64,000 nucleotides of DNA, taken from Gammaproteobacteria bacterium (lineage in GTDB: Bacteria > Pseudomonadota > Gammaproteobacteria > Poriferisulfidales > Poriferisulfidaceae). Each line of letters starts with the position of its first letter. The first letter of the stretch is position 1. A program made the translations under genes and the position numbers. The notes under the pieces are model-generated. The model searched no databases. It was not told the DNA's origin and saw only the letters and a program-made list of their open reading frames with translations. Where the stretch lies: positions 32,099 to 96,098 of the forward strand of contig JAPPLD010000020.1 of the NCBI GenBank assembly GCA_028819565.1, read 5' to 3'. Below, in pieces: positions 26,390 through 45,996 of this stretch.

Positions 26390-27523
26390 ATGACTACGGT
26401 GCCCTTGGACATGGCAGTCATCGGCGCTGGGCCAGCTGGAAGTGTCTGCGCCTATAGCGCGCTTGCCATGTCCACGAAAATACAAGTAGCGCTTGTAGAC
26501 GGGGAAACCTTCCCGCGCGACAAGTCCTGCGGCGATGGGGTCCGGTGTGATGCCGTGTCCATACTGAGAAAGCTTGGCCTAGGGACCATCTTCGATGGGA
26601 AGCCGGTAATCCGGCAGTTGGAGCATACAAGCCCCCCTGGCTTTAAATGTCCGGAAATATCCTTGACAGACGGCGAAGTTGATCCCATGGATGAAATCGG
26701 GTATTACATCGTCGAACGCAAAATCTTTGATCACCATTTGTATGAAGCGGCAATAACTCAAGGGGCAAAAGACTATACGGGGTGCAGGCTGACAGATGCC
26801 AAATTTGATGAATCACAGAAGTTCTGGAATCTGATTTTGCAGGAACGGTCTGGAGCGAGGACCGCGATCCGGAGCCGGGTCTTAATCGGTGCAGACGGCG
26901 CAGGGTCGCGAGTTCGACGGATTGCGGGGTTGAGCCTCAACGGACAGCAGCACAAAGCGGTTGGTCTTCGCGCATATGCGCGAACCGAAGATCTGGCGGA
27001 GAACATCATGCGTGTTGATTTCACCAAGAGCCTGATTCCCGGATATGGATGGGTGTTCCCGCTGGGGGGAGGCAAAGTCAATATAGGAGTAAGCCTTGAT
27101 GCGCGTGATTACAGAAGTTGTGGCAGGAGCCTGGTCTCCTATCTGGACGAGTACATGGGGTATCTAAGCGGCCAGGATGTGGCGATTCAAGACTTGAGCG
27201 GCATCAAATCTCATTCATTGCCGCTAGCGTCGATGTCTCCGCCTCTCGTTCCAAGGCGGCAACTGGCGCTGATCGGTGATGCGGCGGCGATGATCAACCC
27301 ATTCACCGGAGAAGGAATCCACTACGGAATTTGGGCAGGGCACTCGCTGGGAACGGCTATCGGCAAAAATGTGAGCCAGAAAAAATCCGTACAAGCTGCT
27401 TTGGAAGGCTACGCTAGATCATACGCAGAACGATTCGAGGAGACCATGAAGCAGTATGAGAACCTGCGTAAGTGGCTAAGATTCCTGAGATTCCTGGCCA
27501 ACCCGGCCGAGGCGCGGTCTTGA
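26390..27523 (+). CDS. geranylgeranyl-reductase-family FAD-dependent oxidoreductase
   Basis: 377 aa. N-terminal AVIGAGPAGSVCAY...VALVDGETFPRDKSCGDGV matches the GG-reductase family (FAD-binding GxGxxG plus a conserved Cys after the DG motif). Lower GC. First gene of the low-GC RiPP island. Confidence 0.6.
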   Translation: MTTVPLDMAVIGAGPAGSVCAYSALAMSTKIQVALVDGETFPRDKSCGDGVRCDAVSILRKLGLGTIFDGKPVIRQLEHTSPPGFKCPEISLTDGEVDPMDEIGYYIVERKIFDHHLYEAAITQGAKDYTGCRLTDAKFDESQKFWNLILQERSGARTAIRSRVLIGADGAGSRVRRIAGLSLNGQQHKAVGLRAYARTEDLAENIMRVDFTKSLIPGYGWVFPLGGGKVNIGVSLDARDYRSCGRSLVSYLDEYMGYLSGQDVAIQDLSGIKSHSLPLASMSPPLVPRRQLALIGDAAAMINPFTGEGIHYGIWAGHSLGTAIGKNVSQKKSVQAALEGYARSYAERFEETMKQYENLRKWLRFLRFLANPAEARS

Positions 27524-27701
27524 CGGAAAAAGTGCCGGTGGCCCCTGTGGTTCGAGGGCCTGCCTAATCCGACCGTTCCTCTATTGCCGATGCTTTCGAG
27601 TCCGCCGTAGGTCCTCGGCTCTCACTTGACACGACTGTCGCGCCGTGGACAATTCCTGCTATGTCGTCGCCGGATTAATCCTGGCAAGCGAGGAGGGTGT
27701 T

Positions 27702-30119
27702 ATGGCGGAAGGCAGGGCAGAGACAGAGGGCTTGGAGATTGCGGCAGAAAAGGCGATGGAACCCTCGTTCGGGAATGCCTTGCTGTATTTCCAGTCTCTC
27801 GCGGTTTTCCCCCTTATTGTTTGCGCTGCCATGTACGGTGGTTGGTGGATCGCGGGCCCGATCCTCTTCATTATCCTTGTTGAAAGTCTCGATGGCGCCT
27901 TTGGAGAGGAAGAGCGCAACATGGATCCGGACCGGACGTCCGCAAACCAATTGCACTGGTACGAATTGAGCCTCTGGTTATGGGCGATTCTCTGGCCCGC
28001 GACACTGGTGTTCTCGCTCTGGCAGATTCTTGTTGTTGGGCATCTATCCGTTTGGGAAATTGTGCTGATGGCGTCGGTATTGGTGAATGTCGGCCAGGCG
28101 GTCTTCATCATCGGCCATGAACTGGTTCATCGGCAGGCTGCCTGGGAACGCTGGTTTGGTGAGTTTCTGCTCGCCTCCTCTTCCTACCCGCATTACGCCA
28201 CTGAGCACATCTACGTTCATCACGCCCTCGCCTGCACGCCCATGGATTCCGGGACCGCCCCCAAGGGAGTGAGCTTCTGGCAACTCCTTCCGGGAGATTT
28301 GAAGGACAGCTTGGTCAAATCTTGGCGCTTCGCACGCAACCGGTTAGCCCGTCGGCGCCTGCCCGTCTGGCACTACACGAATCCGTTCTGGCGATACGCC
28401 ATTGGAGTCGCGGTGTGGTATTCGCTGGTTTATTGGATGGGTGGGCCGTGGGCATTGTTGATCTTCATCGCTCTTTGCTTCAGCGCAATCCTTTCGATGA
28501 AGATCATCAATTATGTCCAGCACTATGGGCTGCAGCGGGTTCTCTTGCCGAGCGGTCGGCACGAGAAAGTTCGGCCGCGGCATTCTTGGACTGCTTCCAG
28601 CAGGTTCACGAACTGGCTTTTCTATAACATGGAGCGCCATGCCGACCACCACCTCGAGGCAACCCGGCATTATCCGCTGTTGCAGCATTACGGCGAGGAC
28701 GAATCACCGAAATTGCCGGGAAGTTACCTCAAGATGGCAGGCCTCGCCATGTTTCCCCGCAAATGGTTCCGAACCATGGACCCATTGGTCGATCGCTGGC
28801 GCGCGAAATTCTATCCGCAGATCGAGGACTGGCGCACTTATGAAAGCCGGGCGTACGCCGCGTACCCGGGCGCATTCGAGGCAATCAGTGAAATCCTTGG
28901 CGCTGCGCCTCTCCTCGCCGAGTGGATTAACCACTCCCCAGAACTGCTCACGAATCTTCAGGACAGGGAGTTCACTGACCTTGACCTGCCGGATGGTTTT
29001 GGGCCGGACCCGGAATCCGAGAGAGTGGCCCGCAGCGGTCTTGTGCGCCTCTACTGGACGCGCGAGTTTGGGGTCTCCGAAATGGAAGAGCAGATTACGG
29101 AAGTCCCGTTCCAAGGGACTCGCGAGGCGGTGGAGATCGCCCGGCACTGGTCAAATGACAAGACGTTTCAGGTTGGCATGCATATTATGCGCGGCAACCT
29201 GTCGCCGGTCGAGGCAGGAACAGCGTTGTCCAATATCGCCGAAGCCTCGGTTTCTGCCTTGCTGCTGGCAGTCCAGAAAGTCCTTTCCAACCGCCACGTT
29301 TGGCAGGCCGGGGATGGCGTGGCAGTGGTGGCTTTGGGAGACCTCGCCAGCAGGGAAGTGGTGCCTGGGACCGAATTGCGTCTTATGATTGCCCATGGCA
29401 GCGGCAGTGCTCCCGGAGCCCATCACGAAGTGATTTGCCGCCGCTTCCTTGATGCGCTTCATTCGCTGTCGCGCAACCACCTGCTTTTCACATCAGCCCC
29501 GGGCGGGGGAGACGATAATGCCGTTCATTCCCTCACCGATTTCACGGAACTCTATCAGGCTGCCGGTTCGGTCAGGGAACTGTTAGACCTGGCTCGGGCA
29601 CGGTGTGTTTTCGAAACTGGCGACCCAGATATCGGGGAGCGATTTGCTGAAGCAAGACGCGAGATCCTGGCCTCCGACCCGACTTCGCAACGCATGATCG
29701 CCGAACTTCGCGGAATCACCGAAGGCACGGCCGACCCTGGCCTGTCCTCAATCGACGATATGCGGGGAGGTCGCCGAGACGTCGAACGCGCCGCCCGATT
29801 CTTGCAACTGACCCACGCGAATGACACTCCGGACATTCTGGTTCCCGATGCGGTCTCCATCTTCCGAACCGCAGGTGCCGGTGGCTTGATTTCGGCCGAG
29901 GTTGCAGCGCGGTTGGTGGAGGCCACGGAGATGTGGCAGAACTTGCGAGGCATACTGCGGCTGGCTATGGAAGACGATCTTCCAGTCGAAGCGGCAAGCG
30001 CGGAGGCTAAGGACATGATCGCCAGATCCTGCGGGCTGGACGATTTTGACGAGTTGACTGCCGCGATTCGTGAAACGGCTTCCCGTGCCGCTGCTGATAT
30101 TGAAGAAGTAATGACGTAA
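27702..30119 (+). CDS. fusion protein: N-terminal AlkB-like membrane di-iron hydroxylase domain plus C-terminal GlnE/GlnD-like nucleotidyltransferase-type domain (catalytic acidic pair degenerate)
   Basis: Strong RBS GAGGAGGG before ATG 27702 within ORF 27645..30119. N-terminal ~390 aa have TM helices and His boxes HELVHRQ, EHIYVHH, NYVQHYGL, ERHADHH. C-terminal ~430 aa resemble GlnE adenylyl-removase NT plus helical domains, but GAVVALGDLASREVVPGTELRLMIAHGSG replaces the G(S)x9-13DxD motif. Confidence 0.55.
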   Translation: MAEGRAETEGLEIAAEKAMEPSFGNALLYFQSLAVFPLIVCAAMYGGWWIAGPILFIILVESLDGAFGEEERNMDPDRTSANQLHWYELSLWLWAILWPATLVFSLWQILVVGHLSVWEIVLMASVLVNVGQAVFIIGHELVHRQAAWERWFGEFLLASSSYPHYATEHIYVHHALACTPMDSGTAPKGVSFWQLLPGDLKDSLVKSWRFARNRLARRRLPVWHYTNPFWRYAIGVAVWYSLVYWMGGPWALLIFIALCFSAILSMKIINYVQHYGLQRVLLPSGRHEKVRPRHSWTASSRFTNWLFYNMERHADHHLEATRHYPLLQHYGEDESPKLPGSYLKMAGLAMFPRKWFRTMDPLVDRWRAKFYPQIEDWRTYESRAYAAYPGAFEAISEILGAAPLLAEWINHSPELLTNLQDREFTDLDLPDGFGPDPESERVARSGLVRLYWTREFGVSEMEEQITEVPFQGTREAVEIARHWSNDKTFQVGMHIMRGNLSPVEAGTALSNIAEASVSALLLAVQKVLSNRHVWQAGDGVAVVALGDLASREVVPGTELRLMIAHGSGSAPGAHHEVICRRFLDALHSLSRNHLLFTSAPGGGDDNAVHSLTDFTELYQAAGSVRELLDLARARCVFETGDPDIGERFAEARREILASDPTSQRMIAELRGITEGTADPGLSSIDDMRGGRRDVERAARFLQLTHANDTPDILVPDAVSIFRTAGAGGLISAEVAARLVEATEMWQNLRGILRLAMEDDLPVEAASAEAKDMIARSCGLDDFDELTAAIRETASRAAADIEEVMT

Positions 30120-30196
30120 ACGACATCCTGCAGGCCAAGTGATACTGGAGGCACCAGTAGAATGGTTGCGAACGAGTACCGGTTTTGAAAGCGGAT

Positions 30197-32539
30197 ATGA
30201 GTCATAACACGCAGGAAGACGCAGAGTCGCACCAAAAGTTGAATCGCGGAATCCTGCGCAAGGTGGATGCCGCCGACCTCGGCGTGATCGAAATGCCGGC
30301 ATTGACGCCGCATCTTGAGTTTCGAGAGATTGGTGATGGACAGGTGCTTCTGGTCTCCGAACTGTTCAATACGCTGCTTCGCGGGTCAATCCATTCCGAT
30401 CTTCTGCCTCTTCTCGACGGTTCGCGTTCGCACCATGACATTGTGGCCGCTCTTTCCGGTACTTATTCGGAATCCAATATTCGGACGGCATTGGCAGCCC
30501 TTGCCTCAAGAGGCTATGTCGTCTCGGGTGATTATGCCTTGGAGCGAGAATCGGCGGCGTTCTGGTCTTCGTTGGGCGCTTCTCCCCGGTGGGCCGAAAA
30601 ACGCTTGGCAGCCTCGAAAATTTCGATGACCGGTGACGAGGGCAATATTGCCCGTCGGCTTGATGCCGCGGGCGTGACCATAGATGCGGATGGCCCGACC
30701 CTCTCCGTGGTGGTGTGCAAGGACTACCTTGAGCAGATGCATGAGGACATAAACCGGCGCCACATTGAGTCCGGCGTGCCGTGGATGCTGGTCAGGCCGA
30801 AGGGCATCCACCCTTTGTTCGGGCCGATTTTCCGGCCGGCGGAGCAGGGGCCGTGCTGGGCCTGTCTCGCCTATCGTCTTCGCGGCCACCAGGAAGTGCA
30901 CAATTTCCTGCGAAATTTCGCTGGTGCAGATGCCGCGTTTCTTCCTGGTGCCGCTGACCCCACCGTTCTGGATGCGATATACGGCCTTGCCGCGACTGAA
31001 ATCGCGAAATGGCTGGTTTTGGAAGAAATGGCGCCACTTCATGCACAGGCAATCTCGATCGATACCATTCGCCTGAAAAGCGAACACCATCAGGTTATGC
31101 GTCGCCCGCAGTGCTTCACATGTGGCGATGAGAGGCTGTACCGCGCTGACCGGCCACCGGAGCCGGTGCGGCTGAAGCCAAGCCCGAAAGACATCTGCAA
31201 CAGTGGTGGCGTGCGCTCAGTACCTCCAGAAAAGACTCTGGCCAAGTATCAGCGCCTGATCAGCCCCGTCAGCGGGGTCGTGTCGTGGGTTGCGCGTACT
31301 ACGGAGGAGACGGACCCATGGCTGCATGTCTATTGGGCGGGGAGCAATTTCGCACTGAGAAGCAGCGAACTGAATTCGTTGCGGCGGAGCCTGCGTAGCA
31401 AGAGCGCGGGCAAGGGAAGCACGCCGCGGCAGTCTGAAGCAAGTGCGCTTTGTGAGGCGATAGAACGCTACTCCGGGGCCTTTCATGGCGATGAGATTCG
31501 TTGTCGAAGACGTCTTGCGGATTTTCTCAAAGCCGGAGAATCCGAGGCGATCCATCCAAATGACGTTCAACTGTTCAGCGACCAGCAATTGAATAATGCC
31601 GAGCAACTCAATGCGCGCGGTCATCCTTACAATTTTGTCCCGGCGCGGTTCGACCCAGATGCAGAGGTGGATTGGTCGCCTGTGTGGTCGCTTACGCAGG
31701 GTCGGCATCGATACCTGCCGACATCTATGCTCTATGGAATGCTCGATGAACAACGAGGGAATTCAGGTCTCAAGGCGGATTCGAATGGCTGTGCTGCGGG
31801 CAACACGCTTGAGGAAGCCATCCTGCAAGGGTTCTTGGAATTGATCGAACGTGATGCTTTCGCTGTTTGGTGGTACAACCGACTTCGCTTGCCTGGAGTG
31901 GACCTGGAAAGCTTTGGAGACGATTATCTTGCATCCGCGCAGAATTACTACGGCGGTTTCAATCGTGAAATGTGGGTGTTGGATGTCACCCATGATTTCG
32001 GCATACCTACTTTTGTTGCCGTCTCGCGCCGGACTGACGAGGGAGAGGAAGACATTATCTACGGGGCCGGGGCGCACCTGGACCCACACATTGCAGCCTT
32101 ACGTGCGGTGTGCGAACTGAACCAGTTTTTGAACTGGGCCCAAGGGTCGGAGCGGGGGGGGTGCGGCCATGATGTTGACGAGCCATTGTGCCGATGGTGG
32201 TGGAAGAACGGGAAACTCGGGGATCATCCCTACTTGATGCCAGCGTCTGACGTCTCGTTACGCGGCAAGTCTGATTACCCCATCCCTGACACTGCGGATG
32301 TCAGAGAGGATGTGGAGCGATGCCGTGCACTGGTCGAAGCCAAAGGCTTGGAGTTCTTGGTTCTGGATCAGACGCGGCCAGACATCGGCATGCCGGTTGC
32401 AAGGGTCATCGTGCCCGGCTTGCGCCATTTCTGGGAACGTTTCGCGCCTGGGCGCCTGTTTGACGTGCCGGTCGAAATGGAATGGCGCGAAAGTCCTGTT
32501 GAGGAAACGGATCTCAATCCCATCCCGGTCATCGCCTGA
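30197..32539 (+). CDS. PatD/TruD-like azoline-forming cyclodehydratase (fused E1-like/RRE N-terminus plus YcaO domain)
   Basis: ORF 30185..32539 (TTG), with the likely start at ATG 30197. YcaO hallmark motifs GKGSTPRQSEASALCEAIERYSG and GCAAGNTLEEAILQGFLELIERDAFAVWWYN. About 780 aa, matching fused heterocyclases of cyanobactin/TOMM pathways. C-terminal PxPxP-like tail. Confidence 0.8.
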   Translation: MSHNTQEDAESHQKLNRGILRKVDAADLGVIEMPALTPHLEFREIGDGQVLLVSELFNTLLRGSIHSDLLPLLDGSRSHHDIVAALSGTYSESNIRTALAALASRGYVVSGDYALERESAAFWSSLGASPRWAEKRLAASKISMTGDEGNIARRLDAAGVTIDADGPTLSVVVCKDYLEQMHEDINRRHIESGVPWMLVRPKGIHPLFGPIFRPAEQGPCWACLAYRLRGHQEVHNFLRNFAGADAAFLPGAADPTVLDAIYGLAATEIAKWLVLEEMAPLHAQAISIDTIRLKSEHHQVMRRPQCFTCGDERLYRADRPPEPVRLKPSPKDICNSGGVRSVPPEKTLAKYQRLISPVSGVVSWVARTTEETDPWLHVYWAGSNFALRSSELNSLRRSLRSKSAGKGSTPRQSEASALCEAIERYSGAFHGDEIRCRRRLADFLKAGESEAIHPNDVQLFSDQQLNNAEQLNARGHPYNFVPARFDPDAEVDWSPVWSLTQGRHRYLPTSMLYGMLDEQRGNSGLKADSNGCAAGNTLEEAILQGFLELIERDAFAVWWYNRLRLPGVDLESFGDDYLASAQNYYGGFNREMWVLDVTHDFGIPTFVAVSRRTDEGEEDIIYGAGAHLDPHIAALRAVCELNQFLNWAQGSERGGCGHDVDEPLCRWWWKNGKLGDHPYLMPASDVSLRGKSDYPIPDTADVREDVERCRALVEAKGLEFLVLDQTRPDIGMPVARVIVPGLRHFWERFAPGRLFDVPVEMEWRESPVEETDLNPIPVIA

Positions 32540-32590
32540 AGTGCCGCTCTGCGGCAGCCGTATTTTCGATCTCGCACGCAGCTCGTTTCT

Positions 32591-33475
32591 CTATTCTTCG
32601 GACTTCTGGCCTGGCTTTGTGCCGGACAAGAAGTGGTAAGTGAACGCGCCTGCCTGCAGGCCTTTGTCAAAGTCGAGGGCGGCCCCCATGAATTCATGGT
32701 AGGCCAGATCCGGTCCCGGAGGAGGAGGGGTCAGAAATCCGAACCATGACCAGAATTTTCGGGTCATTTCTGTAGATGGGGCCACCTCTGCTGACAGATT
32801 TTTTTCCTGCACTTCGCGGAATCCCGCTTTTTCCAGGGCCACGCGCGCGTCGGACCACGTCACCAATGGGGGCATGCGAAAGCCCCACTGCATACTGGCG
32901 TGAACAGCCTCATGGGCTTCGGACAGGGGAACTCCGCTCAGCAAGCCTTCCAAAGCCTGCCAGCGACCGCCTGGCCTCAGAATTCGGTAGACACCCTGTA
33001 AGTAGGCATGTTTGTCGGGTGCGTAGCAGAATGATTCATGGTTCAACACTGCATCGAAACAAGCGTCGGGAAAGGGCATATCCATGAAATCGCCATGGTG
33101 GAACTCAACCAAGCCGCCGACTCCGCGCTGTTCCGCGAGTTCTGTCGCAACCGCGACATGGGATTCGCAATTAGTCAAACCGATGGCTTGGACTTTGTAC
33201 GTTTCCGCCAACCAGATCACCATTCCCCCGACGCCGCAGCCGGAGTCGAGGATCCGTTGCCCCGGCTTGAGATTGCATTCCTGTGTCAACGTCTGATTGG
33301 CGCGCAGTAGGGATTCGTAGTGGGATTTCGTGTCCGACCCCCAAAGCCCGAAATGGCAGGTAAGGAGGTCGCCTCCGCCGTATTTCACAATGGGGTCTGT
33401 CAACGCTTCATAATGAGCAGGAACAGAAGTTTCTTGTTCTTGGTCGCTTTTCGGAATTTGTTGCGGATTCGTCAT
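32591..33475 (-). CDS. class I SAM-dependent methyltransferase
   Basis: 294 aa. SAM-binding motif I RILDSGCGVGG, plus the acidic residue after beta-2 and motif post-I. Convergent with the cyclodehydratase gene. Confidence 0.75.
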   Translation of the reverse strand: MTNPQQIPKSDQEQETSVPAHYEALTDPIVKYGGGDLLTCHFGLWGSDTKSHYESLLRANQTLTQECNLKPGQRILDSGCGVGGMVIWLAETYKVQAIGLTNCESHVAVATELAEQRGVGGLVEFHHGDFMDMPFPDACFDAVLNHESFCYAPDKHAYLQGVYRILRPGGRWQALEGLLSGVPLSEAHEAVHASMQWGFRMPPLVTWSDARVALEKAGFREVQEKNLSAEVAPSTEMTRKFWSWFGFLTPPPPGPDLAYHEFMGAALDFDKGLQAGAFTYHFLSGTKPGQKSEE

Positions 33476-35706: not shown

Positions 35707-35755
35707 TTTTCCTTCAACGCCTTGGGCAATTTCCCTGCATGGGAGAAAGACGGAC

Positions 35756-38098: not shown

Positions 38099-38270
38099 CT
38101 ACGCAAACCCTCTCCCTAGGAAGTTTCCTAGAATTTTTCCGTCAAGACATGACGGAGGAGAAACAACTGACTCCTGGCGAGAATGTGTTATGCGTGTTCT
38201 GCGCCAGAAGTCATCTTGTTTCTGGAAATGCTTCTAACTCGACTTGCCAGTTAAGAGAGGCAAGGGTTCG

Positions 38271-38546: not shown

Positions 38547-38828
38547 AATTCCTCCTCGCTTAGGTGGGTAATTTGAATACTCATAATGTATTCTTTTTCA
38601 GAGATTTGTCAAGCCCCAGTTGCGCATGTGCAGGCTTTCAGGACTTTACCTTGCGCGCTGATTTTCAGCGGACTTTCGAGGGTTTTTCACTAAGTAAAGT
38701 ATTCTGAAAAAGCTTTGTGCCATACCCGTCAAAATGGCAGAGCAATAACAATTTTCACAACATGCCGTTCTTCCCTAGCAGACAGACGATGACTTTTGAT
38801 AATGGTGTGTCAGTTGTGGCTATAATGA
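38547..38828. promoter_or_regulatory. AT-rich divergent promoter region between the precursor gene and the HlyD/ABC export genes
   Basis: ~280 bp at ~40% GC. Contains inverted repeat GAATAC-N7-GTATTC (38575..38593) ~30 nt upstream of the precursor start, and a TATAAT box at ~38818 on the plus strand. Confidence 0.35.
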
Positions 38829-39737
38829 ATGACCCTATATGGACAAGCATTGATGTTCAATAGTCTGTTTTTTGATGATGCTGCGGCCAGCAGGAACAAA
38901 CGCCATCAACTCGGCTATTTATTAAGGGTAGCGGCTCCTCACGAGCGCGTCATCCTGGCTGGCATCGGTGCGGTTTTGTTGGCGCTCCTCGTTTGGATAT
39001 TATTCGGCAGTGTTGTACGCAGCGTTACGGTCGACGGAGTCCTGCTGAAGCCAGGAATCCGCCATGAGGTTGTCTCGACCGAGCCGGGCCATTTGATGAA
39101 GTTTTTGGTGACCCTTGGAGACCAGATTGAAAAGGGGGGGGCGATTGCCCGTCAGACCGTACCGGAATTGGAGCGCGAGATTACCGCTTTACGTGACCAG
39201 ATTGAGATTCTGGAGGCGGGGGTGCGGCAGGTTGGTGGTGACGGCACGAACTCATTTCTAATCTCGGCCCAAGAAGCATTGCTGCAAATGGAAGCCCGGC
39301 GTATTGCGAAAGAAGTCATCGCCAGCCACATGAATGGCGAAATCATGGTTTTGGATGCTGCCCCGGGAGACTACTTGCCTGCTGGATCAGTTGTTGCCCA
39401 GCTTCGCGATCCGGAGGACAAGCCACTCCAAGCGGTGCTGCTAGTCGCTCCGCGTATGGCAAAACGTCTCCGTGCTGGCATGCAGACATCGGTCGAGGTT
39501 GTAATGTCGGACGGGGCAGTGCGTGAAGTGGATGGAGAAATTGTCGCTGTAACCTCTGGGCCGTTTCCGAATTGGCTTGCGGCGTTTCAGTCGGAGAGCG
39601 TGGATTACGCCTATCGCGTCGACATTACCCTTGACTCTGAATCGAAACTCGCTGTGCCGGACGGCACGCCATGCCACGTACGCATCTTGCTTGGTCGGCA
39701 TTCGCCTATCGCGCTGCTTAGCCTAGAGCAAATTTGA
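38829..39737 (+). CDS. HlyD-family secretion adaptor (NHLM bacteriocin-system secretion protein type)
   Basis: 302 aa. N-terminal TM helix LAGIGAVLLALLVWILFG. Coiled-coil region PELEREITALRDQIEILEAG. C-terminal beta-barrel-type region. Immediately upstream of a C39-peptidase ABC transporter. Confidence 0.7.
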   Translation: MTLYGQALMFNSLFFDDAAASRNKRHQLGYLLRVAAPHERVILAGIGAVLLALLVWILFGSVVRSVTVDGVLLKPGIRHEVVSTEPGHLMKFLVTLGDQIEKGGAIARQTVPELEREITALRDQIEILEAGVRQVGGDGTNSFLISAQEALLQMEARRIAKEVIASHMNGEIMVLDAAPGDYLPAGSVVAQLRDPEDKPLQAVLLVAPRMAKRLRAGMQTSVEVVMSDGAVREVDGEIVAVTSGPFPNWLAAFQSESVDYAYRVDITLDSESKLAVPDGTPCHVRILLGRHSPIALLSLEQI

Positions 39738-39749
39738 TGGCTATCCTGA

Positions 39750-41972
39750 ATGCCTTCTTCCAACCCGAAAGAACCGACTAAACCCGGTAAGTTGCAAATA
39801 AAAGAACGCGAAAAGCGGCGTGTGACTACTCCGCTTCTGCTGCAGATGCACATGACCGAATGCTCTGCCGCATGTTTGGGTAGCGTACTTGCCTATTTCG
39901 GGCGCTGGGTGCCACTGGCCGAATTGCGCGACAGATGTGAGATCAGTCGGGATGGTTCTACAGCTGCCGGCATCAAGCGTGCGGCCCAACACTATGGCCT
40001 CGAATGTTCCGGATGGTTCGGAAAAATTAGCCAGATCAAGCAACGGCCACTCCCGATGATCTTATTCTGGGAATTCAACCACTTTCTGATCCTGGAAGGC
40101 TATGACCGCGATTGGTTCTATCTCAACGACCCAGCCACCGGACGCCGAAATCTCTCAAGGAAGGAATTTGAAAGCGGCTTTACAGGAGTGGCTCTGCAGT
40201 TCGAACCTGGACCGGAATTCCAGCCCGGAGGCGTTCGTCCTAGCGTCTTGGAACGTATCCTGCCCTGGTTGCAAGGCACTTGGGGTGGATTGGCTTATGC
40301 GGTTGGATGCGGGCTATTGCTGGCCGTCCTGGCCCTCGCTACACCTGCATTACTGATCATATTCGTGGATCAAGTATTGGGCAAAAGTGAGCCTTGGGGA
40401 GGGATTGTGGCCGGTGCCATGGCAAGCGCGGCCGTTCTCATCTACGGGTTGACTTGGTTGAAACGGAGATGTTTGCGGCGTTTGGCTGCCCGCATCTCGA
40501 TAGTTGCTTGGGATCAATGTCTGACTCGGCTACTGCAGTTGCCAATCGACTTCTTCCATCATCGGTTAGCGGGAGAACTGACAGCCCGCGTCCTGTCTGT
40601 CGACAAGATTGCCAAGGCTCTTTCGAATCACTTCATCAGCCTGTTGATCGAACTCGGAATGAGCATAGTGTTTTTGTTCGCCATGCTGGCGTACGAGCCG
40701 ACGTTAGCGCTAATCGTCTTGGGCTTGGCCGTACTTAATGCCGTTTTGATGCGCCTGATCTCACGTATTCGCGCCGATGCGAGCCATACCCTGCAGAGAG
40801 AGCAAAGCCTGTTACTGGGCATCGGAACGATGATGCTGCATCACACGGATACATTGCGGGTGACTGCTGCGGATGATCGCTTCTTTTCCCGCTGGAGCGG
40901 CCATCAAGCTCGAGAGATAGAAGCGCGCCAGTGCTTTTCCGAGTGGAGCCATGTTAATTCGGCTTTGCCGGGCCTGTTCTTGATCTTGGGGAGTGTGGCT
41001 GTATTGGCGATTGGCGCAACAGAGGTTATGGCTGGTGAAATGACACTCGGCATGTTGGTGGGATTTTATGTTGTGGCGGCTATGTTTTTGGAACCCGTCG
41101 GGCGTTTCGTTTCGTTTTCAGACGATCTTCAGATACTTGAGACGGATATGCAACGCTTGGAAGACATTACGAAGGCCTCGAAAGATCCTGGGTTAGCCCA
41201 GAGGCGTGATTCGTCGGATTCCATTGCCACACTGAATGGGCGGTTGCAGTTGGCTGGGCATGTAGAGCTGCGCGACATCACCTTTGGCTACAACCAGAGT
41301 CGCCCTCCCATAATCGAGAATTTTGACTTGACAATAAAACCAGGGCAGAGAGTCGCAGTGGTTGGGGCGAGCGGGTCGGGAAAATCGACACTGGCCCGCT
41401 TGATTTCCGGCCTCTACCAGCCATGGTCCGGTGAAATTCTGTTCGACGGTTATCTCAGAGATGAAGTTCCTGACGAAGTTCTATCCCGGTCTTTATCGAT
41501 GGTTGACCAGAATATTATTCTTTTTTCTGCGACAGTACGTGAGAACATCACTTTATGGAATCCTGCCATTCCAGACGATATTCTGGCTAGGGCAGCCCGC
41601 GATGCCTGCATTCACGATGAGATTCTCAGCCGGCCACATGGCTACGCGACGCAGGTCGAGGAAGACGGAGATAATTTCAGCGGCGGTCAGCGACAGCGAT
41701 TGGAAATCGCGCGCGCATTGGTCGGCAACCCGACAGTATTGATTCTTGATGAAGCAACCAGCGCGCTTGACGCGGCCACCGAGGATTTGGTCGACGATGC
41801 ACTACGCCGCCGGGGAATTAGTTGCCTAATCGTGGCGCACCGGCTGAGTACGGTTCGGGATTGCGACCAGATTATTATGCTCGAAAAGGGGAAGGCAGTA
41901 CAGCGTGGCACACACGCTGAGTTGATAACGGACAAGGACGGGACCTACTACCGGCTTGTCCAGGCTGGTTAG
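39750..41972 (+). CDS. ABC transporter with N-terminal C39 bacteriocin-processing peptidase domain (NHLM-system peptidase/ATP-binding protein type)
   Basis: 740 aa. C39 domain LLQMHMTECSAACLGSVLAYFG with the catalytic Cys. Six-TM domain. Walker A GASGSGKST, signature FSGGQRQRL, Walker B ILILDEATSALD. Confidence 0.85.
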   Translation: MPSSNPKEPTKPGKLQIKEREKRRVTTPLLLQMHMTECSAACLGSVLAYFGRWVPLAELRDRCEISRDGSTAAGIKRAAQHYGLECSGWFGKISQIKQRPLPMILFWEFNHFLILEGYDRDWFYLNDPATGRRNLSRKEFESGFTGVALQFEPGPEFQPGGVRPSVLERILPWLQGTWGGLAYAVGCGLLLAVLALATPALLIIFVDQVLGKSEPWGGIVAGAMASAAVLIYGLTWLKRRCLRRLAARISIVAWDQCLTRLLQLPIDFFHHRLAGELTARVLSVDKIAKALSNHFISLLIELGMSIVFLFAMLAYEPTLALIVLGLAVLNAVLMRLISRIRADASHTLQREQSLLLGIGTMMLHHTDTLRVTAADDRFFSRWSGHQAREIEARQCFSEWSHVNSALPGLFLILGSVAVLAIGATEVMAGEMTLGMLVGFYVVAAMFLEPVGRFVSFSDDLQILETDMQRLEDITKASKDPGLAQRRDSSDSIATLNGRLQLAGHVELRDITFGYNQSRPPIIENFDLTIKPGQRVAVVGASGSGKSTLARLISGLYQPWSGEILFDGYLRDEVPDEVLSRSLSMVDQNIILFSATVRENITLWNPAIPDDILARAARDACIHDEILSRPHGYATQVEEDGDNFSGGQRQRLEIARALVGNPTVLILDEATSALDAATEDLVDDALRRRGISCLIVAHRLSTVRDCDQIIMLEKGKAVQRGTHAELITDKDGTYYRLVQAG

Positions 41973-44895
41973 TCCCATGGCGTCTCCGGAATCCCACTCA
42001 CTTGCCAGTTTGGCGGTTCGATCAGGATCTTTGGTGCCCTGCGCCGGAAACCTACCGATAGACCTGGACGACCCGCAAAGCATCTGGTTCATCGAGAAAG
42101 GTGCGGTTGATTTGTTTCTAGTCGAGCGTCAGGGCGGAGTGGATCAGGCATCCCCGCAACACCTGTTTCGTGCCCACTCCGGACGTCTTCTGCCGGGTGT
42201 GGTTCCGCAGGAAGGGGACACGACTTTCGGCTTGGCTGCGAAAGGATTGCCGGACACGGTTTTGTGGCGTCTTTCGATTGCAGACTTGAGTGTGGTTCCG
42301 AATGCGGAATTGGCAGAGCATGTCGATGCATGGATCGCGGATGTTTCTACTGAACTGTCCCGGGATGCAGGACAGCGGCCACGGCCGGACACGCCTGTCG
42401 AGCCCGGCAAGATTTTTCCAGAAGTGGGCGGCACACTTTCGTCCCGGCAGGGCGTGGTGTGGGTATCGCAACTGTCTTCAGGAGCGGGATTGTTTCTGGG
42501 GCTAATCGATCCGGTCGAGGGCGATTTGTATGGTGAGCCCGCCAGTGGCACCGTACCGCTCACGCCTGCGACTTGGCTGACCTTGATGGAAAAAACGAAG
42601 ATTTCCATTCGATCCTCGGAAAATTTTGCCAAAGAGGGGCTTCTTCTGTCTGCCTTAGCGAATTTCCACGTGACAGCGTTTTCTCATGAGCGGCTCAACC
42701 GCAATCTGGCGGTTGCTGATCAGGCGAATTTGGAGCGGGATCGCGTGACTAGTCGCCGCAGCGACGAAGAGCATGCCCGACACCGCCTGTTCAATCTCTA
42801 CGATCTTCCGGATGAAGAAAAGGCCGATGTGGACGGTACAGCATTGCATGAGGTGTTGAAAGTTATAGGGGAACATGAAGGTATTGATTTCAAATGGCCC
42901 GCAAAATCGGGCATTGTTGATTCGGCTCCTACCCTCGGCGACGTCTTGGATGCATCTGGAGTGCGCGGTCGGCAGGTGCGGCTAACTTGGGAAGAACGGT
43001 GGTGGATTGGAGACAGCGGTGCGATGTTGGCGTTTCGGGAAGCCGATGGACAGCCTGTGGCATTGCTGCCGGGTATGCTCGGGCATTATCAGGAAACGGA
43101 GATAGTCGGACAACGCGGCACTCGAGTGACCCCCGAACGTGCGAAGGCGCTCGATCCTGATGCCTGGGTTTTCTACCAGCCGCTGTCGTCGGGCAAGGTC
43201 GGATGGCGAGACTTGTACCGCCTTGTTCGCAAAGGTCTAGTTGCTGATTTTTTACGCTTTGCGACAGCCGGGCTGCTTGGTGGCTTGGTCATACTGGTGC
43301 CTGCCGTAGTGGTCGGTTTCGTCGTGGATAAAGTCATTCCAACTGGTGAGATAAGTCTGCTGTATCTGGCGACAGCAACACTGGCGGCATTCGCTTTGGT
43401 TGGGGCATTACTGCATATCCTTCAGGGCATGGCGCTCATGCGCCTCGAAGGACGTGGCGCGTCTCGACTTGAGGCTGCATTCTGGGATCGCCTGCTTCGG
43501 CTGCCTTTGAGTTTCTTGCGTCGTTACCCGGCGGGCAATCTCGCCATGCGAGGTATGACGTTTCAGGCTCTCCGCGATGCCGTGCGGGCCGTGATCGCAA
43601 ATGCAGTGCTGTCAATCATTTTCCTGTTACCCGCGTTTCTCCTGATTTCCTACTACGATGAGGTGCTGGGAACTGTTACAGCTGCTTTTGGTTTTTTGTC
43701 CTTGGTTGTAATCGTGGTATTGGGCCTGCAGCAAATCTCGCCTTATGGTCAAGTGATGCAGACCGTTCACCACATGGCGGGCCAGCTGTTTCAGTTCATC
43801 AACGGCATTTCTAAACTACGGATCGATGATGCGGAAGGGACCGCTTTCGCGGTTCTGGCGCGTGGCTACCGCGAGCAGAAACGCGCGGAATCCAAACTGG
43901 GCGCCTTGGAAGATCATCTACAGGCATTTGGAGCCGCATTGCCACTGCTAGCCGGTGCGGTGCTGTTTCTGATGATGACGCTGGGCCGGGAGGGACTCGA
44001 GATCGGAGACTTCCTTGTCATTTACCTCGTATTTATAGCGTTTCAGGCGGCGGTGGCCCGGTTGGGCGCATCGTTCAGTGCAGTCGTTGGCATCATGCTA
44101 GCATTCGATCAAATCCGCCCATTTCTATCCGAGACCCCGGAGACAAGTTTTGAGGGAGAACTTGTCGAGAGTTTGGGGGGCGAGGTCGTGTTCGACCACA
44201 TCACTTTTCGATATGATCCTGAGGGTCCCCTGATTCTCGACGATGTCACAATTCGCGCCAACCCCGGCGAGTTTGTCGCTATTGCCGGCGAGTCGGGGGC
44301 GGGCAAGAGTACGATTTTCCGAATTGCGCTTGGCTTGGACCATCCGTCTTCCGGGGCGGTGTACTACGACGGGCGCGACCTTCAGCATCTCAACCTCAAG
44401 CAAGTGCGCCGGAAGATTGGCGCAGTTCCTCAGGACCTGCAATTGCATCCAGAGGACGTATGGGACAACATCGTTGGAGACCGGGAAGGTGTGACCAGTG
44501 ATGTCGCATGGACAGCCGCCAAGGCCGCATCTGTCGACCGCGACATCATGCGGATGCCGATGGGGATGCTGACGTGCGTGGGTGGTGGTGGCCTTACGTC
44601 AGGAGGAGAAAGTCAGCGTATCGTGATTGCTCATGCGCTGATTGAGACTCCCCGAGTCATGTTGCTTGACGAGGCGACGAATTGGCTCGACAACGATAAT
44701 CAAGCCAGGGTCATGGACAATCTCGCGAGTCTACGTTCAACTCGGATTGTCATTGCCCACCGACTTTCAACGTTGCGCCAGGCAGATCGCATTTATGTCA
44801 TGCAAGCCGGGAAAGTGGTCGAAGTGGGGACCTTCGAGACATTGATGGAGGTTGGAGGGGTTTTTCAGGATCTAGTTCGCCGTCAAGTCGCCTGA
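41956..44895 (+). CDS. ABC transporter ATP-binding/permease protein with N-terminal cyclic-nucleotide-binding-like domain (NHLM-system second ABC protein type)
   Basis: 979 aa. N-terminal ~300 aa with a cNMP-binding-like fold (IWFIEKGAVDLFLVERQGG). TM domain. Walker A GESGAGKST. Degenerate signature TSGGESQRIVIA. Walker B VMLLDEATNWLD. Confidence 0.8.
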   Translation: MSRLVSPMASPESHSLASLAVRSGSLVPCAGNLPIDLDDPQSIWFIEKGAVDLFLVERQGGVDQASPQHLFRAHSGRLLPGVVPQEGDTTFGLAAKGLPDTVLWRLSIADLSVVPNAELAEHVDAWIADVSTELSRDAGQRPRPDTPVEPGKIFPEVGGTLSSRQGVVWVSQLSSGAGLFLGLIDPVEGDLYGEPASGTVPLTPATWLTLMEKTKISIRSSENFAKEGLLLSALANFHVTAFSHERLNRNLAVADQANLERDRVTSRRSDEEHARHRLFNLYDLPDEEKADVDGTALHEVLKVIGEHEGIDFKWPAKSGIVDSAPTLGDVLDASGVRGRQVRLTWEERWWIGDSGAMLAFREADGQPVALLPGMLGHYQETEIVGQRGTRVTPERAKALDPDAWVFYQPLSSGKVGWRDLYRLVRKGLVADFLRFATAGLLGGLVILVPAVVVGFVVDKVIPTGEISLLYLATATLAAFALVGALLHILQGMALMRLEGRGASRLEAAFWDRLLRLPLSFLRRYPAGNLAMRGMTFQALRDAVRAVIANAVLSIIFLLPAFLLISYYDEVLGTVTAAFGFLSLVVIVVLGLQQISPYGQVMQTVHHMAGQLFQFINGISKLRIDDAEGTAFAVLARGYREQKRAESKLGALEDHLQAFGAALPLLAGAVLFLMMTLGREGLEIGDFLVIYLVFIAFQAAVARLGASFSAVVGIMLAFDQIRPFLSETPETSFEGELVESLGGEVVFDHITFRYDPEGPLILDDVTIRANPGEFVAIAGESGAGKSTIFRIALGLDHPSSGAVYYDGRDLQHLNLKQVRRKIGAVPQDLQLHPEDVWDNIVGDREGVTSDVAWTAAKAASVDRDIMRMPMGMLTCVGGGGLTSGGESQRIVIAHALIETPRVMLLDEATNWLDNDNQARVMDNLASLRSTRIVIAHRLSTLRQADRIYVMQAGKVVEVGTFETLMEVGGVFQDLVRRQVA

Positions 44896-45022
44896 TGGGA
44901 AGGGATTTACACGGTGGCAACACCTGAATCGAAAGAGTTTCTGCCCACCTGCGCGATTTGCAGTGAGAGCGAGTCTCTGTGATAGACTTGCGCGCAGCGT
45001 TTTCTGACGGTTTTTCAGCGAG

Positions 45023-45949: not shown

Positions 45950-45996
45950 CCTGCTTGGTCTTGCTGTCGCGGAACAGGCGACAAAGGCACCTTTCG

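What the first reader, a model, noticed from the sequence alone, without database searches (positions are those of the whole stretch)
26390..44895. NHLP-leader RiPP biosynthetic island with an unusual mix of modifying enzymes
An ~18.5-kb block sits between dinB and a TraB/GumN gene. The sequence shows an NHLP-type precursor, a fused E1-YcaO (PatD/TruD-like) cyclodehydratase, a SAM methyltransferase, an AlkB-like membrane di-iron hydroxylase fused to a GlnE-like domain, and a geranylgeranyl-reductase-family flavoprotein. It also carries an RND exporter and the three-gene NHLM export set (HlyD, C39-ABC, ABC). NHLP precursors are known to pair with cyclodehydratases and NHLM transporters. I do not recognise a described pathway that adds a membrane fatty-acid-hydroxylase/desaturase-type enzyme, a GG-reductase-like flavoprotein and an RND pump to a five-residue core.
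Basis: partly seen in the sequence, partly recalled or inferred. Interest (0 to 1): 0.9.

Follow-up and report, generated by a model that had tools for sequence, protein, structure and literature searches.

The report
Variant srp thiazoline-peptide gene cluster
This 18.5-kb block is a real gene cluster for a tiny ribosomally made peptide with sulfur-containing rings, but it belongs to the already described 'srp' family shared by many sponge-symbiont bacteria; this copy lacks the family's one well-studied tailoring step (bromination), and its conserved 'unknown' gene turns out to have the fold of a lipid-attaching prenyltransferase.

Summary
One gene was missed: a 369-aa protein at 34597-35706.

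The block is not an undescribed pathway. Its precursor is 57% identical to SrpE, with the same ...EEQLExIxAG|LCCC end. It is therefore a member of the published 'srp' (sponge-derived RiPP proteusin) clusters, in which SrpC (YcaO) makes three thiazolines and SrpI brominates a C-terminal Trp.

The AlkB-GlnE fusion is a signature gene of that family. It has 499 loci in GTDB species genomes. Of the 80 inspected, 65 carry other srp genes, spread over many phyla of mostly sponge symbionts.

This copy is a variant: core LCCCT, no Trp, no brominase, and a geranylgeranyl-reductase-family flavoprotein instead. Across loci the accessory flavoenzyme tracks the core's last residue.

My inference is a prenylated, lipid-like tris-thiazoline peptide, tailored by the GGR, AlkB and methyltransferase enzymes and exported by the RND pump.

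Verdict: new variant of a known kind; interest moderate.

The parts
26390..27523 (+). Geranylgeranyl-reductase-family FAD protein. It is the accessory flavoenzyme of this variant and sits where other srp clusters carry a different flavoenzyme.
   Evidence: TIGR02032 scores 161.3 against a cut-off of 158.8. The best solved relative is 3OZ2, an archaeal digeranylgeranylglycerophospholipid reductase, at 6e-16. The motifs PRDKSC47GDG and PGYGWVFP are kept in all four srp-linked GGRs: window, L012, L031 and L034. It is not an SrpI orthologue.
27702..30119 (+). AlkB-type membrane di-iron monooxygenase fused to a degenerate GlnE-like nucleotidyltransferase domain. It is a signature gene of the srp family. 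The ORF opens at 27645; the likely start is the ATG at 27702 (805 aa).
   Evidence: Pfam and NCBIfam hits. The AlkB part matches 8F6T at 1.6e-54 with HELVH, EHIYVHH, NYVQHYGL and RHADHH aligned. The nine His are invariant in 23 homologues, which also place the start at MAEGRAE. The GlnE motif GKLGG..SDLDL is GDLAS..TELRL here. There are 893 homologues and 499 GTDB loci.
30185..32539 (+). Fused leader-binding (E1/RRE-like) and YcaO cyclodehydratase; SrpC counterpart.
   Evidence: TIGR03882 scores 132 (cut-off 36.9), TIGR03604 scores 276.8 (cut-off 219) and PF02624 gives 2.9e-96. It is 70-71% identical to the YcaOs of loci that carry SrpI and LCCCW precursors.
32591..33475 (-). Class I SAM-dependent methyltransferase.
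   Evidence: Pfam Methyltransf_11/25/31. The nearest solved relatives are natural-product O/N-methyltransferases, with prenyl-diphosphate C-methyltransferases lower in the list. A methyltransferase is present in 33 of 80 related loci.
33476..34596 (.). Apparently non-coding 1.1-kb spacer inside the island.
   Evidence: No convincing ORF. No protein similarity to any gene of the related loci. No Rfam family. An IS110-type transposase is inserted here in a contig of the same species, L002.
34597..35706 (+). Conserved 369-aa protein with an ABBA (PT-barrel) prenyltransferase fold; proposed peptide prenyltransferase.
35756..38098 (-). RND-superfamily exporter of the HAE3/MMPL (hydrophobe/amphiphile) type, directly downstream of the precursor on the same strand.
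   Evidence: TIGR00921, PF03176 and a sterol-sensing domain. The precursor-then-RND arrangement recurs across phyla.
38271..38546 (-). NHLP (proteusin) precursor peptide of 91 aa; SrpE homologue.
   Evidence: TIGR03793 scores 73.1 against a cut-off of 50.9. It is 57% identical to published SrpE, E 1e-35, with the same L(X)4L and AG|LCCC. It is the only such precursor in the island.
38274..38288 (-). Predicted core LCCCT (residues 87-91), after the AAG cleavage motif.
   Evidence: Read directly from the sequence. The boundary is inferred from SrpE, where LahT150 releases LCCCW.
38547..38828 (.). Divergent intergenic region between the precursor/RND unit and the HlyD/ABC unit. It holds a sigma-70-like site at 38612-38585(-).
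   Evidence: TTGACA-16-TACATT, 10 of 12 matches, about 40 nt upstream of the precursor ATG. The count of such sites in the region is not above chance. The region is 80-90% conserved with L013 and L014.
38829..39737 (+). HlyD-like adaptor of the NHLM export set.
   Evidence: TIGR03794 is the best hit at 82 bits, below the cut-off of 156; PF13437 also hits.
39750..41972 (+). C39-peptidase ABC exporter (NHLM ABC1), which would cut off the leader and export the core.
   Evidence: TIGR03796 scores 876.8 against a cut-off of 853.3; Peptidase_C39 gives 5e-31.
41956..44895 (+). Second NHLM ABC permease/ATPase (ABC2), with an N-terminal extension of about 290 aa.
   Evidence: TIGR03797 scores 670.2, just below the cut-off of 709.4, and is by far the best hit.

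Best explanation
The block is one biosynthetic gene cluster of the srp (sponge-derived RiPP proteusin) family. Its host is a gammaproteobacterium close to the 'Ca. Porisulfidus' MAGs, and it sits in a conserved chromosomal slot just after dinB.

Steps shown for the family's orthologues:
- The 91-aa NHLP precursor is recognised through its leader (the L(X)4L motif, here LDEEQL).
- The fused E1/RRE-YcaO uses ATP to turn the three consecutive cysteines into thiazolines.
- A double-glycine-type cut after ...AAG releases a five-residue core.

Steps that follow from family assignments here:
- The C39-ABC, second ABC and HlyD set does the leader cleavage and export.

This copy is a variant. The core is LCCCT rather than LCCCW, so it has neither the C-terminal Trp nor the SrpI brominase. 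It carries a geranylgeranyl-reductase-family flavoprotein instead.

Steps that are my inference (about 0.4 on their own):
- The conserved 369-aa PT-barrel protein prenylates the leader-bound thiazoline peptide.
- The AlkB-type di-iron domain of the fusion hydroxylates a terminal methyl of that hydrophobic substrate at the membrane. Its GlnE-like domain has lost the nucleotidyltransferase motif and serves as a non-catalytic scaffold or binding module.
- The GGR-family enzyme saturates prenyl double bonds in this variant.
- The methyltransferase caps a terminus or the prenyl group.
- The HAE3-type RND pump, apparently co-transcribed with the precursor, handles the resulting small lipophilic product.
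For: Family membership:
- The precursor is 57% identical to SrpE, with the same cleavage motif and LCCC.
- The YcaO models score above cut-off.
- Published biochemistry exists for SrpE, SrpC and SrpI.
- The fusion co-occurs with the YcaO in 53 of 80 GTDB loci and with at least one other srp gene in 65 of 80. In 18 loci it sits with SrpI orthologues of 65-82% identity.
- The gene set is conserved in Nitrospira and Defluviicoccus MAGs.

Variant status:
- SrpI is found with 8 of 12 LCCCW cores and 0 of 22 other cores (p = 2.7e-5).
- FAD_binding_4 enzymes accompany LCCCG[FVLI], LSCCL and LCCCL cores. GGR accompanies LCCCT, LSCCV and LCCCG. An amine oxidase accompanies RCCC.

Prenylation idea:
- The AF2 model has pLDDT 93.
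- Distant family members are the only, or nearly the only, tailoring gene next to NHLP precursors with short cores.
- A constellation of acidic, basic and Tyr residues is invariant down to 23% identity.
- There is a published precedent for a leader-dependent ABBA prenyltransferase on a Nif11-leader RiPP, MppC.
- A GGR-family reductase sits in the same cluster in two phyla.
- The AlkB domain is a close relative of alkane 1-monooxygenase with all iron ligands.
- The pump is of the hydrophobe/amphiphile type, and LolA-like genes occur in sister clusters.

GlnE-like domain degenerate.
Against: - No product has been observed for this or any srp cluster beyond the thiazoline and bromo-Trp intermediates.
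- The prenyltransferase assignment rests on a predicted fold only. No sequence-level link to known prenyltransferases was found. PatF shows that PT-barrel proteins can be inactive.
- Cores such as LCCC and RCCC lack the aromatic or hydroxyl side chains that most peptide prenyltransferases use, so the acceptor atom is unknown.
- No prenyl-diphosphate synthase, rubredoxin or rubredoxin reductase is in the island.
- GGR occurs in only 3 of the 80 GTDB loci, plus the window.
- 15 of 80 fusion genes have no srp neighbour within 10 kb.
- The HlyD and ABC2 scores are below NCBIfam cut-offs.
- I could not read the founding JACS 2021 paper, so I do not know how its authors annotated these genes.
Confidence: 0.7

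Rival explanations
1. The product is a small, non-lipidated poly-thiazol(in)e peptide, for example a metal-binding or signalling molecule. The PT-barrel protein would be a non-catalytic or differently acting partner. The AlkB domain would oxidise the peptide itself, either hydroxylating the conserved Leu side chain or desaturating thiazoline to thiazole, since no McbC-type dehydrogenase is present. The GGR-family flavoprotein would act on the peptide, as its relatives QhpG, LodB and CmlS act on peptides or amino acids.
For: - Contiguous thiazolines are classic metal ligands (my general knowledge).
- No FMN azoline dehydrogenase is among the island's genes.
- The GGR protein also scores against the peptide-modifying flavoenzymes QhpG (3e-19), LodB (5e-17) and CmlS (1e-18).
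- Accessory flavoenzymes track the C-terminal residue, as expected for enzymes that act on the peptide.
- Leu is conserved at core position 1 in most variants.
Against: - The PT-barrel family keeps an invariant charged and aromatic constellation down to 23% identity, and it is the sole tailoring enzyme in other NHLP clusters. That argues for catalysis.
- The best models for the flavoprotein are GGR-family ones, and the GGR Cys and YxWxFP motifs are kept.
- The HAE3/MMPL pumps and the LolA-like genes point to a hydrophobic cargo.
- No TonB receptor or uptake genes are conserved in the clusters.
Confidence: 0.22
2. One reading: this is a RiPP pathway of an undescribed kind.
For: The searchable papers that mention NHLP or YcaO never mention a fatty-acid desaturase, GlnE or an RND pump alongside them. 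The roles of most of the genes are unassigned.
Against: The precursor, the YcaO and the fusion are orthologous to those of the published srp clusters, which carry the characterised SrpI. The LCCC motif and its variable ending are already noted in the literature.
Confidence: 0.03
3. The island is a mosaic: a RiPP module (precursor, YcaO, NHLM export) that merely sits next to unrelated lipid-metabolism genes (GGR, AlkB fusion, RND pump).
For: Taken one at a time, GGR, AlkB and MMPL families are lipid enzymes. A standalone AlkB-like gene lies in the flank at 23192-24334. 15 of 80 fusion genes are 'orphans'.
Against: The fusion, the PT-fold gene, the RND pump and the methyltransferase recur with the precursor and YcaO in at least six phyla, in shuffled orders. 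GGR lies between the fusion and the YcaO in Vicinamibacterales (L031, L034). The precursor and the RND pump are adjacent and co-directional across phyla.
Confidence: 0.03
4. The cluster in this genome is decaying and makes nothing.
For: There is a 1.1-kb non-coding stretch inside the island. IS elements are inserted in two intergenic gaps in a contig of the same species. GC content is lower than in the flanks.
Against: All eleven genes are intact full-length ORFs and are identical or nearly identical in six independent assemblies. The IS insertions spare the coding regions. Precursors of this family are among the most highly transcribed genes in sponge microbiomes.
Confidence: 0.02

Closest known systems
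srp (sponge-derived RiPP proteusin) gene clusters: SrpE precursor, SrpC YcaO, SrpI brominase (Nguyen et al., JACS 2021; PMC10286304; PMC10858898)
   Same: Both have an NHLP leader with an L(X)4L motif, an ...AxxAG cleavage motif, an LCCC core and a fused YcaO that makes three thiazolines. They share the same partner genes (AlkB-GlnE fusion, PT-fold protein, methyltransferase, RND pump, NHLM export). Both occur across the phyla of sponge symbionts.
   Different: Here the core ends in Thr rather than Trp. There is no SrpI, so no bromination. A GGR-family flavoprotein fills the accessory slot.
mpr cluster of Methylovulum psychrotolerans (MprC YcaO and MprD azoline oxidase on NHLP precursors; PMC10286304)
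   Same: It is a proteusin-type leader with YcaO azoline formation. MprC and MprD can process an appended LCCCW core.
   Different: The mpr cluster has a dedicated azoline dehydrogenase and many longer precursors. This island has one precursor and no McbC-type dehydrogenase.
Leader-dependent ABBA prenyltransferase MppC of the Moorena producens mpp lanthipeptide cluster (PMC12715784)
   Same: It is a soluble alpha-beta-beta-alpha prenyltransferase in a cluster with a long structured (Nif11/NHLP-type) leader and a short core. It needs the leader and the L(X)4L motif, and it is sequence-divergent from the cyanobactin prenyltransferases.
   Different: MppC geranylates a Trp of a lanthionine ring. 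Here there is no Trp and no lanthionine. I could not test the sequence relation to MppC because its sequence is not in the held files.
Linear cyanobactins with protected termini (aeruginosamides, muscoride). I recall these from general knowledge; I did not check them here.
   Same: They are very short linear azol(in)e peptides made ribosomally, then capped by a PatF-type prenyltransferase and, in aeruginosamides, by a C-terminal methyl ester. A prenyltransferase plus a methyltransferase on a 4-6-residue azoline peptide is the same logic.
   Different: Cyanobactins use PatA/PatG proteases and short leaders, and their prenyltransferases are leader-independent. No AlkB, GGR or RND pump is involved.
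AlkB alkane 1-monooxygenase naturally fused to rubredoxin (PDB 8F6T)
   Same: The membrane di-iron domain is the same and all His boxes align, at E 1.6e-54. Both carry a C-terminal fusion partner on the cytoplasmic side.
   Different: The partner here is a GlnE-like domain of about 430 aa with a degenerate nucleotidyltransferase motif, not an electron-carrying rubredoxin. The substrate is unknown.

Membership tests
srp (sponge-derived RiPP proteusin) BGC | NHLP precursor with an L(X)4L motif, an AxxAG cleavage motif and an LCCC-type core | tested here: met
   57% identity to SrpE (E 1e-35); LDEEQLETIAAG|LCCCT against LTEEQLEAISAG|LCCCW.
srp (sponge-derived RiPP proteusin) BGC | SrpC-type YcaO cyclodehydratase in the cluster | tested here: met
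   The YcaO models score above cut-off. The protein is 70-71% identical to the YcaOs of loci that carry SrpI orthologues and LCCCW precursors. The published SrpC sequence itself was not available to me.
srp (sponge-derived RiPP proteusin) BGC | C-terminal Trp in the core and the flavin-dependent brominase SrpI | tested here: not met
   The core ends in Thr. No SrpI homologue is in the window. The flavoprotein matches SrpI only at superfamily level, E 0.004.
srp (sponge-derived RiPP proteusin) BGC | Origin in a sponge microbiome | tested here: inconclusive
   The identical island occurs in MAG GCA_028824105.1 and in metagenome assemblies. The nearest relatives are titled Ca. Porisulfidus, 'lac_sponge' and similar. 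I inferred the host from record titles and did not read a sample description.
NHLP/proteusin precursors (TIGR03793) | Leader matches the NHLP model above the curated cut-off | tested here: met
   73.1 bits against a cut-off of 50.9.
Azoline-forming YcaO/TOMM cyclodehydratases | E1-like/RRE leader-binding domain plus a YcaO domain | tested here: met
   TIGR03882 scores 132 and TIGR03604 scores 276.8, both above cut-off; a wHTH domain lies at residues 41-112.
Azoline-forming YcaO/TOMM cyclodehydratases | Partner FMN (McbC-type) azoline dehydrogenase. This is optional for the family. | tested here: not met
   None of the island's ORFs has such a domain.
NHLM export trio (TIGR03794/03796/03797) | All three proteins reach the curated scores | tested here: inconclusive
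   ABC1 scores 877 against 853 and is met. ABC2 scores 670 against 709 and HlyD scores 82 against 156; both are below cut-off, although each model is the top hit.
ABBA (PT-barrel) prenyltransferases | Ten-strand antiparallel barrel built of alpha-beta-beta-alpha repeats | tested here: met
ABBA (PT-barrel) prenyltransferases | Sequence membership in a known prenyltransferase family (Pfam or a PDB sequence match) | tested here: not met
   No hit for 36 members, for 10 distant members or for the profile.
ABBA (PT-barrel) prenyltransferases | Basic and Tyr residues lining the lumen that bind the diphosphate; prenyl-transfer activity | not testable with these tools
   Conserved E64, D75, D133, R213, R218, K312, K343, K355 and Y357 lie on strands and are compatible with this.
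Geranylgeranyl reductase family (TIGR02032) | Family model above cut-off, with the conserved Cys near the flavin and the YxWxFP motif (motifs recalled from the archaeal GGR structures) | tested here: met
   161.3 against 158.8, which is marginal. The best solved relative is 3OZ2. C47 and YGWVFP are present. Pfam GGR_cat scores 26.1, just under its cut-off of 27.
AlkB alkane 1-monooxygenase family | The four His boxes, including NYxxHYGL (nine iron-ligand His) | tested here: met
   Aligned with 8F6T and invariant in 23 homologues.
AlkB alkane 1-monooxygenase family | Rubredoxin or rubredoxin reductase partner nearby | tested here: not met
   No rubredoxin-like ORF and no reductase in the window. 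A ferredoxin-reductase-like gene occurs in only one lineage of related loci.
GlnE adenylyltransferase | Nucleotidyltransferase motif G[GS]...D-x-D | tested here: not met
   GKLGG..SDLDL of E. coli GlnE aligns with GDLAS..TELRL here. Most family members have x-L-D, and only a few have D-L-D.

The most novel reading that the evidence does not exclude
The srp clusters, including this one, would make prenylated (lipidated) poly-thiazoline mini-peptides. A previously unrecognised, large family of leader-dependent PT-barrel enzymes (about 1,500 clusters at 50% identity) would attach an isoprenoid to NHLP-delivered cores. An AlkB-type alkane monooxygenase and, in this variant, a geranylgeranyl-reductase homologue would then remodel the lipid tail, and a lipid-type RND pump would export the product. 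That would be the first use of AlkB and GGR chemistry in a ribosomal peptide pathway. It would also give a concrete structure class for a cryptic metabolite shared by many phyla of sponge symbionts.
Probability: 0.3. Interest if true: 0.75.

Novelty: new variant of a known kind. Interest (0 to 1): 0.55.

Why it matters
The srp clusters are among the most widespread and most highly transcribed specialised-metabolite genes in sponge microbiomes, yet their final product and role are unknown.

This window shows three things:
- The family is modular. A fixed core of genes (precursor, YcaO, AlkB-GlnE fusion, PT-fold protein, methyltransferase, pumps) is combined with exchangeable flavoenzymes that track the last residue of the core.
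- Brominase-free variants exist.
- The conserved 'unknown' gene has a prenyltransferase fold.

Together with the AlkB, GGR and lipid-type pump genes, this gives a testable structural hypothesis, a lipidated tris-thiazoline peptide, with defined mass shifts to look for.

Tried and rejected
- SrpI in the window: I looked for a homologue and found none.
- GlnE-like domain as an active adenylyltransferase: rejected, because the motif is degenerate.
- The 1.1-kb gap and the two small gaps: I searched for pseudogene remnants, small precursors and known RNAs and found nothing.
- Signs of mobility: there are no tRNA genes in the window. I did not screen the window systematically for integrase or transposase genes. 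IS elements appear only in a sister contig.
- Sequence-level identification of the 369-aa protein: negative in Pfam, NCBIfam, PDB sequences, a member-by-member Pfam scan and Pfam on distant relatives.
- The afdb50 fold library was not available.
- Glutamine synthetase next to the fusion: it recurs only in two closely related loci.
- 'Orphan' fusion genes: they share no consistent neighbours.
- Ferredoxin-reductase-like and AcrB-type neighbours: they are confined to one gammaproteobacterial lineage, so I treated them as context rather than cluster.
- Papers: the JACS 2021 and ACS Chem Biol 2022 papers are not held. The MppC sequence is not in the held supplement.
- The promoter/terminator scan gives counts no higher than chance.

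Full report
**What is there.**

Between a dinB-like gene (24962-26233) and a TraB/GumN gene (45023-45949), the window carries eleven intact genes.

The individual scores are listed in the observation check and the parts list.
- The AlkB half of the fusion aligns with the solved alkane 1-monooxygenase 8F6T at E 1.6e-54. All four His boxes are in register.
- Alignment with 22 homologues places the true start of the fusion at the internal ATG at 27702, giving 805 aa.
It has no match in Pfam or NCBIfam.
- The 1.1 kb at 33476-34596 holds no convincing gene, no remnant of genes seen in related loci, and no Rfam family.

**Where it comes from.**

The precursor sequence occurs, with the same gene neighbourhood, in six public assemblies. 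These include MAG GCA_028824105.1 (contig JAPPEW010000121.1) and a 1.85-Mb contig. In that contig, IS elements sit in two of the island's intergenic gaps without breaking any gene.

The nearest species-level relatives are MAGs titled 'Candidatus Porisulfidus' and unnamed Gammaproteobacteria or Chromatiales from sponge projects.

Against three of them (L013, L014, L016):
- The left flank is 92-94% identical in DNA up to position 26233.
- Identity then drops to 65-76% across the fusion, YcaO, methyltransferase and 369-aa genes.
- It rises again to about 85% from the RND gene onwards, and ABC1 is 95-96% identical in protein.

So the biosynthetic module has been exchanged, or has diverged much faster, inside a conserved chromosomal slot. 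The slot just upstream of the fusion holds a FAD_binding_4 enzyme, a methyltransferase or a GGR in different relatives.

**It is a member of a described family.**

- The fusion protein has 893 homologues at 55-76% identity over its full length.
- It has 499 loci in one-genome-per-species GTDB contigs. The best 80 are almost all MAGs whose titles point to sponges. They span Gammaproteobacteria, Alphaproteobacteria, Nitrospirales, Vicinamibacteria, Binatia and Gemmatimonadota.
- In a Nitrospira MAG and a Defluviicoccus contig, the fusion sits with a YcaO, a homologue of the 369-aa protein, methyltransferases, an MMPL pump and an NHLP precursor ending in RCCC or LCCCGF.

The literature search then identified the family as the 'srp' clusters (sponge-derived RiPP proteusins). 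In the published work:
- SrpE has the core LCCCW.
- The YcaO SrpC converts the three Cys to thiazolines.
- The flavin-dependent SrpI brominates the C-terminal Trp in a leader-dependent way.
- The precursors are among the most transcribed genes in sponge microbiomes, and the ecological role is called elusive.

The window's precursor is 57% identical to the published SrpE (E 1e-35). It has the same L(X)4L motif and the same AG|LCCC junction.

**Census of 80 related loci.**

I compared six-frame ORFs of all fetched loci with the window's proteins and with the published SrpI.

| Gene found within 10 kb of the fusion | Loci (of 80) |
|---|---|
| At least one other srp gene | 65 |
| YcaO | 53 |
| Precursor | 39 |
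| 369-aa homologue | 37 |
| Methyltransferase | 33 |
| RND pump | 32 |
| SrpI orthologue (65-82% identity) | 18 |

The counts are lower bounds, because the flanks are only 10 kb.

The core ending and the accessory flavoenzyme go together:

| Accessory flavoenzyme | Cores it accompanies |
|---|---|
| SrpI | 8 of 12 LCCCW cores, 0 of 22 others (Fisher p = 2.7e-5) |
| FAD_binding_4 | LCCCG[FVLI], LSCCL, LCCCL |
| Amine oxidase | RCCC |
| GGR homologue | LCCCT (this window), LSCCV (L012), LCCCG (two Vicinamibacterales) |
| None | four LCCC clusters |

In the two Vicinamibacterales loci, the GGR gene lies between the fusion and the YcaO.

The window has no SrpI. Its flavoprotein resembles SrpI only at superfamily level. 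This copy therefore fails one defining feature of the characterised srp type (Trp plus brominase) while meeting the others. It is a variant within the family.

**The missed gene.**

The 369-aa protein has 277 close homologues, all unnamed and without Pfam domains.

- An AlphaFold2 model built on 36 of them is confident, with pLDDT 93.3 and pTM 0.91. It shows repeated helix-helix-strand-strand units.
- The 53 best Foldseek hits against the PDB are all ABBA aromatic prenyltransferases.
- No sequence-level link to those families could be found.

A profile search of 1.84 billion representatives finds 1,494 members at E ≤ 0.001. I looked at four distant members. Two lie in minimal NHLP clusters that have no YcaO:
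- In one, an NHLP precursor (core NEESDTNDPPTWHP), the PT-fold protein and the NHLM export trio stand alone.
- In the other, a FAD_binding_4 enzyme and the PT-fold protein precede two NHLP precursors with cores LPDMSW and FYYDW, plus the export trio.

The third sits next to a methyltransferase with no NHLP precursor or export genes called on its 8.7-kb contig. The fourth is on a 1.7-kb contig that shows no context.

Down to 23% identity the family keeps E64, D75, D133, R213, K343, Y357 and W295 invariant. E131, Y132, R218, K312, H341 and K355 are nearly invariant. That is what one expects of an active enzyme with a diphosphate-binding, acid/base-equipped barrel. I could not inspect the coordinates.

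A leader-dependent ABBA prenyltransferase acting on a Nif11-leader RiPP (MppC) was published in late 2025. Its relatives were reported next to a few NHLP genes. I could not compare sequences.

**How it most likely works.**

Shown for orthologues: leader recognition, three thiazolines made by the YcaO, and release of a five-residue core at the AG motif.

Following from family assignments: cleavage and export by the C39-ABC, ABC and HlyD set.

Inferred here:
- The PT-barrel protein prenylates the leader-bound peptide.
- The membrane AlkB domain oxidises a terminal methyl of the now hydrophobic substrate.
- The GGR-family enzyme saturates the prenyl chain in this variant. Its best solved relative is the archaeal lipid reductase 3OZ2, and it keeps the Cys and YxWxFP motifs.
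- The methyltransferase caps the product.
- The HAE3/MMPL pump moves a small lipophilic molecule. The pump gene follows the precursor on the same strand here and in many phyla. Sister clusters add a LolA-like gene.

The GlnE-like half of the fusion aligns with the E. coli GlnE adenylyltransferase domain 3K7D, but GKLGG..SDLDL has become GDLAS..TELRL. Most family members also lack the first Asp. I take it to be a non-catalytic module. It stands where natural AlkB fusions carry rubredoxin.

Weak points:
- The prenyl acceptor is unknown, because several cores have no aromatic or hydroxyl residue.
- No prenyl-diphosphate synthase or rubredoxin is in the island.
- GGR is rare in the family.
- Nothing beyond thiazolines and bromo-Trp has been seen experimentally.

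The main rival is a non-lipidated thiazol(in)e peptide whose oxidations are done directly by the AlkB domain and the flavoprotein. It remains quite possible.

**Verdict.**

It is wrong that no described pathway matches.
- Novelty: a new variant of a known kind.
- Interest is moderate. The family is known and much discussed. The brominase-free LCCCT/GGR variant, the modular pairing of core ending with flavoenzyme, and the prenyltransferase fold of the conserved unknown gene make the open question of the srp product more directly testable.
- As a check, the published value 569.15 for modified LCCCW equals my calculated two-thiazole-one-thiazoline form.

Noticed in passing
window 17400-26233 against 27700-35700 against 35800-42000: There is a sharp step in DNA identity to the sister MAGs L013, L014 and L016: 92-94% in the left flank, 65-76% over the biosynthetic genes, and about 85% over the RND and export genes. 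This suggests the biosynthetic module is swapped, or evolves fast, inside a fixed slot after dinB.
   Followed up: partly
L002 (same species, 1.85-Mb contig): 15247-16197 and 8564-9838: An IS110-type transposase is inserted in the spacer that corresponds to window 33.5-34.6 kb. An rve integrase is inserted between the precursor and HlyD. No gene is disrupted.
   Followed up: no
L049:1925-3502(-), and 11 other loci: LCCCW/SrpI-type clusters carry a protein of about 450-525 aa whose N-terminal part resembles the NHLP leader (PF02979 1.8e-5; 41-56% identity to the window precursor over that part). It may be a leader-like domain fused to an unknown C-terminal domain. It is absent from the window.
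   Followed up: partly
L035:14055-15107(+), and 8 other SrpI-type loci: A LolA-like (outer-membrane lipoprotein-sorting) gene sits inside the srp clusters next to the RND pump. It is absent from the window.
   Followed up: partly
L090:5002-6534 and L094:6664-10022: These are minimal NHLP clusters without a YcaO. In them a distant homologue of the window's 369-aa PT-fold protein is the only tailoring gene, or one of two. The cores are NEESDTNDPPTWHP, LPDMSW and FYYDW.
   Followed up: partly
window 23192-24334(+): A standalone AlkB-like fatty-acid desaturase/hydroxylase gene, 27% identical to the fusion's AlkB domain, lies next to a MerR-type regulator in the conserved flank rather than in the island.
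   Followed up: partly
window 15100-16497(+): This flavin amine oxidase is 46% identical (E 6e-149) to the amine oxidase that sits directly upstream of the fusion in Nitrospira srp clusters. Here it lies 10 kb away, beside an AbiEii toxin gene (13935-14864). Whether it is linked to the island is unknown.
   Followed up: no
L011 and L063 (both on contig OY288106.1): One Ca. Porisulfidus genome carries a second, more divergent copy of the AlkB-GlnE fusion (53% identity) about 30 kb from the first. It has no other srp gene within 10 kb.
   Followed up: no
L007 and L033 (Nitrospira), also L023, L024, L042, L075: Nitrospira-type clusters carry two paralogues of the PT-fold protein (44% identical to each other across families), plus an MPAB/Lcp-like gene and an amine oxidase. 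The two Nitrospira loci where the precursor was captured (L007 and L033) have the core RCCC.
   Followed up: no
window 38585-38612(-): A sigma-70-like TTGACA-16-TACATT site lies about 40 nt upstream of the precursor start codon, in a 282-bp divergent intergenic region that is 80-90% conserved with sister MAGs. The number of such sites in the scanned region is not above chance.
   Followed up: no
window 38000-46000: GC content of the export half of the island (0.52-0.56) is lower than that of the flanks (0.58-0.62).
   Followed up: no
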